From contig OZ024741.1 of the NCBI GenBank assembly GCA_964016885.1, positions 394,258,001 through 394,322,000 on the forward strand: a DNA stretch of 64,000 nt, given 5' to 3'. Below the pieces are notes generated by a model that ran no database searches, was not told where the DNA came from, and was given only the letters and a program-made list of their open reading frames with translations. Below are positions 1,691 through 36,980 of this stretch, piece after piece. Within the stretch, counting starts at the first letter, position 1. Each line of letters begins with the position of its first letter. The stretch comes from Eledone cirrhosa (Eukaryota). The translations under genes and the position numbers were made by a program.

Positions 1691-3331
1691 ATGAGATGCA
1701 GTTTGGGTTTGTGCCAGGAAAAAGCACCACTGATGCTCTCTTCCTTGTGAGGCAGTTACAGGAAAAGTACCTAGCTAAAAGTAAACTGTTCTACCTGGCA
1801 TTTGTCGATCTGGAAAAAGCCTTAGCCAGAGTGCCCCGTGACATAGTCTGGTGGGCTCTTAGAAAACTAGGAGTAAATGAATGGCTTGTAAAAGCTGTAC
1901 AAGCCATGTTTAGGGGAGCAGTCAGCAAAGTTCGAGTTAACAATGACTATAGCGAGGAATTTGGCATACAGGTCAGTGTCCACCAGTTAGCCCTCTCCTG
2001 TTTATTATAGTATTGCAGGCTATAACAGCGGAGTTTAAGACTGGAGGCCCATGGGAACTTCTATATGCGGATGATCTTACACATATAGCTGAATCTATGG
2101 TGGAACTAAAGAAGAAATTCCAACCATGGAAACAGGGATTAGAAAGAAGGGGTCTCAAAGTCAACCTGATAAAGACTAAGTAAGTCCTAGTAAGTAGACG
2201 AGAAAACAGAACCTAGATCCCCTCAGGGAAATGGCCTTGCTCAGTATATAGAAAAGGTGTAGGTAGGAACTCTATCCTCTGCCCCAAATGCAAACTATGG
2301 GTACACAACAGATGTAGTAGGATCTCAGGAAGTTTAGTTAAGAATGTAGACGTTACATGTAGCAGATGCACCAGGACAGTAAGCAGCAAACAGCCACAGG
2401 AAATAAGCACTACCAAATTCTGGGAGGGCTCTGTAGAAACAGTAGACAGCTTCTGCTACCTAGGTGACCGAATTAGCAGAGGTGGGTGTTCGGAAAGTAC
2501 AATAAATAGGGTAAGAACGGGATGGAAGAAGTTCAGGGAACTACTGCCACTGCTAGCTGCAAAACGCTTCTCCCTCAAAATGAAAGGCAGACTGTATGAC
2601 ACATGCATACGAACAGCGATGTTGCATGGTAGTGAGACCTGGGCGCTGTGTGTAGAAGACTTGCGTAGATTAGAAAGAAATGAAGCCTGCATGCTCCGAT
2701 GGATGTGTAATAGTAATATATCTGAACAGCAACGCATAAATGAACTGAGAGAGAGACTGAGCATAAGAGGAATCAAATGCTGTGTGCAGGAGAGGAGGAT
2801 GCGTTGGTATGGACATGTGATGCGTATGAAGGTTGACAGCTGCATAAAAAGGTGCAGAGCACTAAAAGTCGATGGAAACCGGAGAGTGGGGAGACCCAAG
2901 AAGACCTGGGATGAGGTGATAAAAGCGAACCTTGCCCAATTGCACCTCTCAAAGGCGATGACACAGGACAAAGACCTCTGGCGTTTCGCAGTAATACAGA
3001 AGACCCGACTTCCCACGGGTACAAGCCAAAGCTGAAACATATAGACAATATGCCCCCACCTCTACCACTGCAAAGTGGCCGTGGAGGTGTCACGGCAAAA
3101 AAGCACCCAGACCACACTGTAAAGTGGATGTGTAGGCGCCACGGAAAAAAAGCACCCCACACTCGCTGTAAATGAGGTTGGTGTTAGGAAGGGCATCCAG
3201 CTGTAGAAATAAAGCCAAAATCAGTTCCTGTATGAGCAAGACAAGGTCAGCCGACCGGACACTGCCAACAACAGGACAACCCGTCTAACCCATGCTAGCG
3301 TGGAAGAATCAACGTAAAACGGTGATAATGG
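1691..3331 (+). mobile_element. 5'-truncated RTE-clade LINE (RT C-terminal part + 3' UTR), frameshifted
   Basis: QFGFVPGKSTTDA, LAFVDLEKA, LLYADD, VDSFCYLG, MLHGSETW, RWYGHVMR, GRPKKTW motifs across ORFs 1609-2010 and 2580-3035. Confidence 0.92.
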
Positions 3332-3346
3332 TACATGTATTACATC

Positions 3347-3372
<26 letters not shown>

Positions 3373-3377
<5 letters not shown>

Positions 3378-3478
3378 GGAAAAAAGAAACGAAATTTCAT
3401 TTCCCACTCTTAGTACGGCTGTTACTTAAATATAAGTATGTATACGTACATACACATATGTATACAGACGTACAGTAG

Positions 3479-3544
<66 letters not shown>

Positions 3545-4272
3545 CATGCACACATATATATATGTACGTATGGATTCACCAAATATTTATTATAATGCTC
3601 GGTGTGTTTGTAAACAAACATCCCGTATTAAGCCGTAGTGTCTAGCAACCACCGTTGCTCGTTTGTTCAACACTGACAAAGGAACGTTGTACTAGTTTCA
3701 AGCTTGTTAGCTATCGTCAGCAACGTATACCTTCCTGGCAGATAGTTGAACGTCCGAAAGTATATACTTTCCTTATGCATATTAACGGCTGAGTAGCCCA
3801 ATTTGCATATCGAGTGGGTTAATCGGCCAGGTGCACCGAAAACGATAAACGGAAAAAATGAAACGAAATTTCATTTCCCACTCTTAGTATGGCTGTTACT
3901 TAAATATAAGTATGTATACGTACATACACATATGTATACAGACGTACAGTAGCATGTATATATATATACATACATGCACACACATATATATGTACGCATG
4001 GATTCACCAAACATTTATTATAATGCTCGGTGTGTTTGTAAACAAACATCCCGTATTAAGCCGTAGTGTCTAGCAACCACCGTTCCTTTGTCAGTGTTGA
4101 ACAAACGAGCAAGGGTGGTTGCTAGACACTACGGCTTAATAATAAATGAGCATTATAATAAATGTTTGGTGAATCCATACGTACATATATATATGTGTGC
4201 ATGTATGTATATATATATATACATACTACTGTACGTCTGTATACATATGTGTATGTACGTATACATACTTAT
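3373..4272. mobile_element. Penelope pLTR/retrozyme-like repeat: about 473 bp unit + partial direct copy + inverted copy
   Basis: Start of the 3373-3845 unit repeated from 3846 to about 4084, then reverse-complement copy about 4081-4272. Contains a hammerhead; (TA)n on both sides. Confidence 0.75.
3684..3726 (-). ncRNA. Minimal type-I hammerhead ribozyme
   Basis: Minus strand: ACGTTG-CTGACGA-TAGCT AACA AGCTT-GAAA-CTAG-TA|CAACGT. 6-bp stem I, palindromic stem III, GUA triplet. Confidence 0.85.
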
Positions 4273-4307
4273 ATATATATATATATATAAATACATACAC
4301 ACACATA

Positions 4308-4646
4308 GAGGCACATGGCTTAGTGGTTAGAGCATTGGCCTTGCAATCGAAAGGTTGTGAGTTCAATTCTCAGACCGGGTGATGTGTTGTTACCTTGAGC
4401 AAGACACTTTATTTCACATTGCTCCAGTTTACTCAGCTGTAAAAATGCGATGATAGGGACTGGAGTCCATATCATTCCACTGCAAAGTGGTCGTGCAGGT
4501 GCCACGGCAAAAAAGCACCCAGCACTCACTGTAAATGAGGTTGGTGTTAGGAAGGGCATCCAGCTGTAGAAATCAAGCCAGAATCAGTTCCCGTCCCACC
4601 CTTGCAAGCAGGGAAAAAGCGGACGTAAAATGAAATGATGATGATG
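4308..4646 (+). mobile_element. CORE-SINE with RTE tail, copy 2
   Basis: Full head, CORE and tail with (ATG)n end; flanked by direct repeat ACACACACATA (4297-4307 / 4647-4657), a low-complexity candidate TSD. Confidence 0.92.
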
Positions 4647-4679
4647 ACACACACATATAAATGTTATACATATGCAATA

Positions 4680-9532: not shown

Positions 9533-9581
<49 letters not shown>

Positions 9582-9626
9582 CACATAAGAAATGTAGAAT
9601 CAGTGGTGCTACGAATAAGATTTATT

Positions 9627-9723
9627 AGACATATTACAATCGTTTCTCTGGCGACCAGCTCGAGGCACGATCGATGTAATGATCAAACCTGACTCTGAAA
9701 TCACAAGATCCTCAGATTTGTCT
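9627..9723 (-). ncRNA. Type-I hammerhead with long stem II (inverted copy)
   Basis: Reverse complement of 9727-9823 with one stem I mismatch. Confidence 0.75.
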
Positions 9724-9726
9724 CTG

Positions 9727-9823
9727 AGACATATCTGAGGATCTTGTGATTTCAGAGTCAGGTTTGATCATTACATCGATCGTGCCTCGAGCTGGTCGCC
9801 AGAGAAACGATTGTAATATGTCT
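9727..9823 (+). ncRNA. Type-I hammerhead with long stem II
   Basis: AGACATAT-CTGAGGA-TCT[~56 nt]AGA-GAAA-CGATTG-TA|ATATGTCT; perfect 8-bp stem I. Confidence 0.82.
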
Positions 9824-9967
9824 AATAAATCTTATTCGTAGCACCACTGATTCTCCGTTTCTTATGTGATATTATACTCTGCTCTGTAAGATCAATGAGT
9901 GCTCAAATGGCCTACCGCTTACGGATGCTTTAAGCATCCCACACCAATTATATATATATATACATCT

Positions 9968-29649: not shown

Positions 29650-29773
<124 letters not shown>

Positions 29774-29849
29774 CAAATAACGAAACGAAATTAAATTTCG
29801 TTTCGTTTGTAACTCAGTTTTGTATGACTGAAAGGCCGGAGGATAGGTA

Positions 29850-29894
29850 AATATTGCTGATGAGATGTAACAACATCGAAACTAGTCCACTATT
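29850..29894 (+). ncRNA. Minimal type-I hammerhead ribozyme
   Basis: AATATTG-CTGATGA-GATGT AACA ACATC-GAAA-CTAG-TC|CACTATT; same loop II (AACA) and stem III (CTAG) as 3684. Confidence 0.87.
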
Positions 29895-30108
29895 CCTGTC
29901 TGGCTTTCTGGAGAATAGAGGAAAGGTGTTTCCTCGAAAACCAGTATGACTCTAAAAACCGGTTTGTCTGTGTGTTTACATACAGAATAGCTGAACACTC
30001 ACAGTAAAGTGTCCAGTGAAAAGCTCGGTACATCTACATATGTACACGTGTGTGTATTCATATGCATACTAGTATTTCAGTATACATATGTGGATGTACA
30101 TTTTTAAC

Positions 30109-30144
<36 letters not shown>

Positions 30145-30275: not shown

Positions 30276-30515
30276 ATAAAGGAGCAAAGATTCAGTGTTG
30301 CATCATAACATATTTAATAACATATTACATATGTTTCACTATCGATCAGCTCGAGGAACAACCTATTATTGACCGAACCTGACTCTGTAATCGAAAGATC
30401 ATCAGATATGGTTTCGGTCAATAATAGGTTGTTCCTCTAGCTGATCGATAGTGAAACATATGTAATATGTAATTAAATATGTTATGATGCAACACTGAAT
30501 CTTTGTTCCTTTATT
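30276..30515. repeat. Inverted repeat (about 100-bp arms) of a hammerhead-bearing repeat
   Basis: 30276-30377 versus 30413-30515; family related to the 9578 palindrome. Confidence 0.88.
30321..30410 (-). ncRNA. Type-I hammerhead with long stem II (homolog of 9727)
   Basis: Minus strand: CATAT-CTGATGA-TCT..AGAGTCAGG..CCTCGAGCTGATCGATAGT-GAAA-CATATG-TA|ATATG. Confidence 0.75.
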
Positions 30516-31247
30516 GTTATCGTATTATACTTCTCTCTGCGCGAGCATCGAGTGTTCATCCGGCGTACCACCTACGGACGCAATTTTTCTTGCATCCATA
30601 CACCTATATACAACATTTAAAATCCAAGGCCAATGCTACCATTTAATCGGCACTTTACTCCCCCAGCCTAATAAGGAAGTTTTATGATTGCTTTTTTTAT
30701 GTCTCGCTCTTTCTCTCTCACACACACACATTACGGTCTCACCTCATACTGTAAACCAGACAACACATCCAATAAAGTCGTTTTCTCTTTTATCTGTCTT
30801 CTCTTAACTGTTCTGTCCTGGCGAAAAAAGAATTCTTTTTCGCCTGCTTTCTAGCTAGCCTAATTTCATACACACTCCTTAGAATTTGCTGTATAGAATT
30901 CACTTTCAACGCTTGACCGGCTCCACCAACTCCCTCATTGTTCTACAGGCAAGTTCAGCCACCCGCACCTCCCACCCACCGCCATGAAAGATTTAACTAC
31001 AATCTTCCCATAGTTCGGCTATTTATTACCAGTCTCTGTTTATTGTCATCATCTTTCTTCTTGCCTTAATATTTCTGTTTCCCGTCTCAGGTTCTGTTCA
31101 CTTTCAGAAAGTTGTGATCATCTTTCTTGTCTTATTCTTTCTGTTTTCCGTCTTATATTCTGCTGAATGTCACAATGTTGACTTGTCTCTTTATTCCCAA
31201 GTCTTTTTTTATATTGTTCGTGAGTTTCTCTTTCGCTCGAAGATTTC

Positions 31248-36649: not shown

Positions 36650-36980
<331 letters not shown>

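What the first reader, a model, noticed from the sequence alone, without database searches (positions are those of the whole stretch)
3373..4272. Inverted copy starts almost exactly at the hammerhead cleavage site
Seen: the minus-strand ribozyme would cut GUA|CAACGTTCCTTTGTCAG. The inverted copy at about 4081 begins CGTTCCTTTGTCAG, 3 nt past the cut, joined through CGTT microhomology to a tandem (1 + partial) array of a 473-bp unit. Inference: the integrated cDNA came from a self-cleaved RNA, and the tandem arrangement fits template jumping or copying of a circular RNA of about 470 nt.
Basis: partly seen in the sequence, partly recalled or inferred. Interest (0 to 1): 0.75.

Follow-up and report, generated by a model that had tools for sequence, protein, structure and literature searches.

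The report
Retrozyme junction near cut is chance
This is one of thousands of copies of a small non-coding jumping repeat that carries a predicted self-cutting RNA motif and is likely pasted in by Penelope-type retrotransposon enzymes; its inverted arm starts next to the predicted cut, but other copies start all along the repeat, so that match is likely chance.

Summary
The anatomy is real: a minus-strand type I hammerhead motif (predicted cut 3690|3689), one full plus one partial unit, and an inverted arm that starts at 4081, 3 nt past the cut, joined by a 4-nt overlap. The unit belongs to a young family (6,388 exact 28-mer hits; unit about 420-430 nt, 473 here only through a TA expansion). 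In 157 arms, 2 start within 5 nt of the cut against 3.4 expected. Among 90 junctions chosen for lying at the cut, none starts at +1 and at most 13 could. What is fixed is the other end: arms stop at +273 or +219, mostly in (TA)n, and 49 of 52 head-to-head pairs use one of each, the Penelope 'tail' footprint. Best reading: a non-autonomous retrozyme that is likely copied from both strands of a nicked (TA)n target, on a template that runs through the cut site (probably a circle). No autonomous partner was matched by sequence, and no RNA data were available. The scan found this architecture before on other DNA of this genome. Known kind, modest interest.

The parts
3347..3373 (.). (TA)n target, left flank
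   Evidence: sequence
3374..3846 (-). Full retrozyme unit (473 bp; family unit about 420-430 nt, inner TA run expanded); ends at the long 3' end (+273 in family coordinates) at 3374
3374..3427 (-). 54-nt 'tail' between the short (+219) and long (+273) fixed 3' ends; likely the two reverse-transcription start sites
   Evidence: 3' ends: +273 in 68 and +219 in 67 arms; role inferred from PMC11167929
3680..3736 (-). Predicted type I hammerhead: 6-bp helix I, helix II closed by U.U, 2-bp helix III with palindromic loop, possible outer helix; predicted cut between 3690 and 3689
   Evidence: motif, alignment and pair counts with sister family; activity untested
3801..3808 (-). Octamer-like motif kept in the sister family; candidate internal promoter element (label recalled, untested)
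   Evidence: family 1 vs family 2 alignment
3847..4084 (-). 5'-truncated upstream unit of the same arm; arm starts at cut+34
4081..4084 (.). 4-nt overlap (microhomology) that joins the two arms head to head
   Evidence: overlaps of 2 nt or more at 33 of 46 overlap-type junctions vs 18% for random joins
4081..4275 (+). Inverted 5'-truncated arm: starts at cut+4, has a small internal replacement near 4143, ends at the short 3' end (+219)
4276..4290 (.). (TA)n target, right flank (boundary ambiguous by a few bases)
   Evidence: sequence

Best explanation
This is one head-to-head insertion of an abundant 420-430-nt non-coding repeat with a predicted hammerhead (a retrozyme), likely pasted in by the enzyme of a Penelope-like retrotransposon, and the start of its inverted arm 3 nt past the predicted cut is likely chance. 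Shown: the two arms of an insertion point outward, end at two fixed sites 54 nt apart (one arm at each in 49 of 52 pairs), lie mostly in (TA)n, start at scattered places, and often meet by short overlaps. Inferred mechanism: a Penelope-type endonuclease nicks both strands of a (TA)n tract; each 3' end primes reverse transcription, one at +273 and one at +219 of the RNA; each cDNA runs a variable distance, usually straight through the hammerhead site and round the unit; the two cDNA ends are then joined by microhomology or short fill-ins. The template must be continuous across the cut site. I favour a cut-and-religated monomer circle (about 0.5) over an uncut multimer (about 0.35): a palindromic helix III is reported to cut as a dimer in multimers and to stay quiet in a monomer circle. 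Here the two cDNAs happened to stop at +34 and +4, where they share four bases.
For: Family size: 6,388 exact hits. 5' ends: 2 of 134 within 5 nt of the cut vs 3.1 expected; among 157 arms, 2 vs 3.4 at the cut, 20 vs 13.0 in the 37 nt before it, 11 vs 12.5 in the 40 nt after it. Cut-chosen junctions: -2:6, -1:7, +1:0, +2:9, +3:2, +4:9, +5:5, +6:14, +7:11. Genome-wide rate at the cut about 2.2% per 10 nt per unit vs background 1.5-2.5% or 2.7-3.8%. 3' ends: 49 long/short, 3 long/long, 0 short/short of 52 classifiable among 88 pairs (P=5e-12); 188 of 216 such ends run into TA. Sister family: 12 of 12 readable pairs long/short (read by eye). 99 of 119 arms pass the cut; L111 has a private allele in 9 of 9 units over both arms; divergence 2.0% within an arm, 3.1% between arms, 4.8% between loci. 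The genome holds RT + GIY-YIG Penelope-type ORFs of 938 and 1,096 aa. Literature: inverted truncated copy and one-sided tail (PMC8557442); both strands extended, internal start sites, hammerhead cleavage not needed in vitro (PMC11167929); dimer-only cleavage (PMC4209133).
Against: No autonomous element shares sequence with this family: none among 20+12+30+20 Penelope-type loci; a tail likeness to one family did not beat shuffles. The 99 of 119 figure is inflated, because many loci were chosen for covering the cut region. Long arrays can also grow at DNA level (L110 has a two-unit period), and only 8 of 91 private alleles at columns covered by both arms are shared by both arms, so identical units do not prove a circle. 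5 of 33 loci mix two subfamilies between arms. 41 of 88 junctions have extra bases rather than overlap. The background rate rests on tens of events, so an excess at the cut below about two-fold is not excluded. PMC11167929 saw no difference in start site between the two strands in vitro, so the one-of-each rule is not explained by it.
Confidence: 0.75

Rival explanations
1. One reading: this inverted arm is a cDNA that ran off the 5' end of a self-cleaved RNA and lost 3 nt when it was joined.
For: The arm starts at cut+4. Up to 13 of 63 junctions in -2..+7 could be true +1 starts hidden by shared A or TA. Unreviewed scan notes report an excess at the cut in other families of this genome. R2 ribozymes do set 5' ends (PMC3774820, abstract start).
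Against: No excess at the cut in this family by three measures; 0 apparent starts at +1; more starts just before the cut than just after it (20 in 4,541 nt vs 11 in 4,117 nt at risk). The other arm of this very insertion runs through the site.
Confidence: 0.15
2. Same enzymes, but the template is an uncut read-through transcript of a tandem locus (or linear RNA with template jumps); no circle is involved and the hammerhead plays no part in insertion.
For: PMC11167929 found unprocessed RNA to be the main substrate and no reads ending at the cut. Helix II here is closed by U.U, which may weaken cleavage (recalled). Some arms mix subfamilies.
Against: Compensatory changes keep the stems across two families. 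L111 has nine identical units in both arms, and no unit boundary scar is seen. Similar mollusc repeats are expressed mostly as circles (PMC7229834).
Confidence: 0.35
3. The inversion arises by fold-back (snap-back) of one cDNA or by later DNA rearrangement, not by priming from both strands.
For: The unit is rich in hairpins (z = -7). Several junctions lie in the tail hairpin: 19 vs 9.8 expected at +241..+273.
Against: A fold-back copy would end where the first arm ends or at random, not at the other fixed site in 49 of 52 pairs. Arms often cover parts of the unit that the partner lacks.
Confidence: 0.08

Closest known systems
Metazoan non-LTR retrozymes (Cervera and de la Pena 2020, PMC7229834, passages read; Li, Clavereau and Pollet 2026, bioRxiv 10.64898/2026.07.22.740005, part 1 of 5 and passages read)
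   Same: Non-coding tandem unit with one type I hammerhead per unit, low GC, thousands of copies, highly self-paired RNA, proposed dependence on Penelope-like elements.
   Different: Unit slightly longer than the 170-400 nt reported. Circular RNA is not shown here. The passages I saw do not describe head-to-head arms or two fixed 3' ends for retrozymes ('tail' 0 hits and 'inverted' 1 unrelated hit in the 2026 preprint).
Endonuclease-bearing Penelope-like elements: pLTR, inverted 5'-truncated copy and tail (Craig et al. 2021, PMC8557442, passages read; Frangieh et al. 2024, PMC11167929, parts 1-2 of 4 read)
   Same: Partial tandem, inverted 5'-truncated copy at the 5' side, tail on one side only, microsatellite targets, hammerhead upstream of the internal start sites.
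   Different: No ORF; tail 54 nt rather than 30-40; the whole element is the repeat unit. The one-long-one-short rule is counted here (49 of 52).
R2 elements with a 5' ribozyme (PMC3774820; search listing and abstract start only)
   Different: Here 5' ends do not gather at the cut.

Membership tests
Metazoan non-LTR retrozyme | Type I hammerhead in each unit | tested here: met
   Core motif; core intact in 206 of 263 units that cover it; 93.8% of stem cells paired, 4 pairs with two-sided changes. Rfam models do not score it.
Metazoan non-LTR retrozyme | Short non-coding tandem repeat, dimers to multimers, high copy | tested here: met
   419-432-nt units, arrays from 1 to about 40 units; 6,388 hits; no ORF of 150 aa over 3374-4275.
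Metazoan non-LTR retrozyme | Self-cleavage in vitro | not testable with these tools
   Needs an assay; helix III is 2 bp and palindromic, so dimers would be needed.
Metazoan non-LTR retrozyme | Expressed as circular RNA | not testable with these tools
   No RNA holder was listed.
Non-autonomous Penelope-like element | Partial tandem with inverted 5'-truncated copy | tested here: met
   88 head-to-head junctions in the loci examined; the window copy is one.
Non-autonomous Penelope-like element | Optional 3' tail (two fixed 3' ends) | tested here: met
   +273 in 68 and +219 in 67 arms; one of each in 49 of 52 pairs.
Non-autonomous Penelope-like element | Microsatellite target | tested here: met
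   188 of 216 fixed 3' ends run into TA-rich sequence.
Non-autonomous Penelope-like element | Sequence shared with the pLTR of an autonomous partner | tested here: inconclusive
   No match among 82 Penelope-type loci; only 150 of 10,596 GIY-YIG candidates were scored.
Autonomous Penelope-like element | RT + GIY-YIG ORF | tested here: not met
   No such ORF in the unit or between units.
Elements whose 5' end is set by ribozyme cleavage (R2-like) | Genomic 5' ends gather at the cut | tested here: not met
   2 vs 3.4 expected within 5 nt; 0 apparent starts at +1.

The most novel reading that the evidence does not exclude
A Penelope-type reverse transcriptase copies a ribozyme-made RNA circle by rolling circle from both strands of one DNA break, starting at two different fixed sites. 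The lack of any stop at the cut, the one-long-one-short rule, identical units in both arms and extra stops in the tail are the genomic record of that route.
Probability: 0.4. Interest if true: 0.6.

Novelty: new member of a known kind. Interest (0 to 1): 0.3.

Why it matters
The specific claim (a genomic footprint of ribozyme cleavage in vivo) would have mattered, but it does not hold for this family. What remains bears on an open point: how retrozymes get into genomes and how Penelope-like elements make inverted arms and one-sided tails. This family gives a sharp, testable rule (each insertion uses both start sites, one per strand) and shows that the copied RNA is continuous across the cut. 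If other families in the same genome do stop at the cut, as unreviewed scan notes say, the contrast between families would be a natural test of ribozyme activity in the germ line.

Tried and rejected
Rfam scan: no hammerhead family at gathering score. The repeat finder was swamped by TA runs. Minimum-energy folding of the single motif does not show the active fold (z -1.46). First pair count used a mis-indexed structure and was redone. Sequencing runs: no RNA holder listed, so expression was not tested. Contigs of coded runs hold the family; no loose end at the cut is among the rows shown, but those tables are cut, so inconclusive. A matched genome-wide control count away from the cut was not obtained; the background comes from fetched loci instead. 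Autonomous partner: a recalled Pfam accession did not exist; Penelope-type loci found through an RT fragment in L199 and through GIY-YIG gave no sequence link. Hammerhead core conservation among copies (2.8% vs 4.6% mismatches) was not used as evidence, since subfamily variants inflate the comparison. Rows dropped before counts: the window's own copy; merged overlapping loci; one duplicated insertion; L110, L118 and L119 (long arrays); 24 of 90 cut-chosen places that were indels or inner deletions; 36 of 88 pairs with a worn or cut-off 3' end. Paper searches listed no paper on this family or on breakpoints against the cut in retrozymes; supplements were not read.

Full report
Observation. On the minus strand a hammerhead core starts at 3720, and the predicted cut falls between 3690 and 3689. 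The minus-strand arm is one full unit (3374-3846) plus a partial one (3847-4084) and starts at cut+34. The plus-strand arm starts at 4081, cut+4, and the two share four bases at 4081-4084. Both outer ends lie in (TA)n. The 473-bp length is private to this copy: an inner TA run grew, and family units are 419-432 nt. Rfam does not score the motif. A sister family at window 29770-30110 (465-nt unit, 67-76% alike in patches) keeps the stems through two-sided changes at 4 of 13 pairs, with 93.8% of cells paired against 22-45% for slid controls (five rows, two families). Helix III is 2 bp with a palindromic loop, the form reported to cut only as a dimer (PMC4209133, part 1 of 4 and passages). Helix II is closed by U.U in this family and by G-C in the sister. 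Cleavage is untested.

The family. The 3.0-Gb animal genome holds 6,388 exact matches to a 28-mer just after the cut. I mapped arms on a natural 430-nt unit (L018), numbered from the cut, in loci.

Of 134 distinct arms not chosen for their junction, 2 start within 5 nt of the cut (3.1 expected if uniform), 3 within 10 (6.2) and 12 within 20 (12.5). A hazard analysis that allows for how loci were chosen (157 arms, 52,231 nt at risk; window copy and three long arrays left out) gives 2 against 3.4 within 5 nt, 20 against 13.0 in the 37 nt before the cut and 11 against 12.5 in the 40 nt after it. A genome-wide pattern found 111 places where the post-cut sequence lacks the family's upstream letters. 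I fetched 90 of them; 66 are true arm starts near the cut and 24 are indels or inner deletions. The starts fall at -2:6, -1:7, +1:0, +2:9, +3:2, +4:9, +5:5, +6:14, +7:11. The -2 and -1 cases could be +1 starts that share A or TA with the flank, so at most 13 are exact; +6 and +7 are inflated by the edge of the pattern. Scaled up, about 125 starts lie in this window, 2.2% per 10 nt per unit, against a background of 1.5-2.5% (arrays included) or 2.7-3.8%. There is no excess. One below about two-fold cannot be excluded, because a matched genome-wide control count was not obtained. About nine of the 90 start at +4 exactly as this copy does; with thousands of arms such cases are expected.

What is fixed: 3' ends. 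Arms end at +273 (68) or +219 (67), 54 nt apart, and 188 of 216 such ends run into TA-rich sequence. Among 88 head-to-head junctions, 52 have both outer ends readable: 49 pair a long with a short end, 3 are long/long and none is short/short (P = 5e-12 against one half). Solo arms split 24 long and 19 short of 49. The window copy follows the rule. The sister family does too, in 12 of 12 readable pairs (read by eye). Of the 88 junctions, 46 overlap by 0-8 nt (33 by 2 nt or more, against 18% for random joins), 41 carry extra bases and one overlaps by 34.

Comparison with print. Craig et al. describe for Penelope-like elements a partial tandem, an inverted 5'-truncated copy and a 30-40-bp tail at one end, with a bias for microsatellites (PMC8557442, passages). 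Frangieh et al. show that a Penelope-like protein cuts and extends both target strands, starts at internal RNA sites that match the tail, does not need hammerhead cleavage in vitro, and leaves no reads ending at the cut (PMC11167929, parts 1-2 of 4). Retrozymes are tandem type I hammerhead repeats expressed as circles, also in a mussel (PMC7229834, passages), and are argued to derive from Penelope-like elements (bioRxiv 10.64898/2026.07.22.740005, part 1 of 5 and passages).

Template. 99 of 119 arms with a fixed 3' end run more than 10 nt past the cut (inflated by how loci were chosen), so the copied RNA was mostly continuous there: a religated circle or an uncut multimer. Units differ by 2.0% within an arm, 3.1% between arms of a locus and 4.8% between loci; 28 of 33 loci keep one subfamily in both arms; L111 has nine identical units with a private allele over both arms. 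That fits one monomer template. Against reading too much into it: L110 has a two-unit period that points to DNA-level growth, only 8 of 91 private alleles are shared by both arms, and inverted arms can be homogenised later. 5' ends are about twice as common in the tail hairpin (+241..+273: 19 against 9.8, P = 0.006 before correction for ten bins), in long and short arms alike, as if the enzyme stalls on coming round to the start region. This is a lead only.

Enzyme. The genome has Penelope-type elements with RT, a CxxxxCxxC linker and GIY-YIG (the linker's link to the Neptune clade is from PMC8557442), with open frames of 938 and 1,096 aa. Several show the same inverted layout, and one family has two 3' ends 68 nt apart with one of each in two readable pairs. 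None of 82 such loci shares sequence with this family beyond separate insertions nearby. The partner is therefore inferred from the footprint, not identified.

Earlier notes. The scan reported this two-armed architecture before on other DNA of this genome, probably including this family. My reading was set before I looked. Three notes claim an excess of starts at the cut, apparently in other families. I tested that only for this family and did not find it.

Verdict. New member of a known kind; interest 0.3.

Noticed in passing
window 29770-30110: Sister retrozyme family (465-nt unit, 1,073 first-look candidates), also a head-to-head insertion in a microsatellite with two fixed 3' ends (about +226 and +300); hammerhead with G-C at the base of helix II.
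   Followed up: partly
window 3801-3808 (minus) and the same place in the sister family: An octamer-like motif is kept in both families about 45 nt upstream of a TATA-like run and about 70 nt upstream of the hammerhead's outer helix; candidate internal promoter (labels recalled).
   Followed up: no
family positions +241..+273 (window 3374-3406): Arm 5' ends are about twice as common in the tail hairpin (19 vs 9.8), in long and short arms alike.
   Followed up: partly
L110:17-4327; L118-L119: An array with alternating 420/422-nt units that differ at about ten sites (two-unit period), and an array of about 40 units: signs of DNA-level expansion after insertion.
   Followed up: partly
L273:2880-5693 and L275:2775-6062 (oriented coordinates): Open frames of 938 and 1,096 aa with RT and GIY-YIG motifs: candidate intact Penelope-type elements; the L273 family has two 3' ends 68 nt apart.
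   Followed up: partly
window 37573 (minus) and 37969 (plus); also 9435, 20435, 36112: Further hammerhead-like cores, the first two identical and pointing outward; probably other retrozyme or Penelope-type families.
   Followed up: no
window 2217-3330 and 4305-4650: The insertion sits between the 3' part of a LINE-like element and a tRNA-like SINE (likeness recalled; a related tRNA-like match at 36773).
   Followed up: no
window 9578-9872 and 30290-30520: Near-perfect long palindromes (147-nt arms at 9578-9872; another visible), possibly more fold-back insertions.
   Followed up: no
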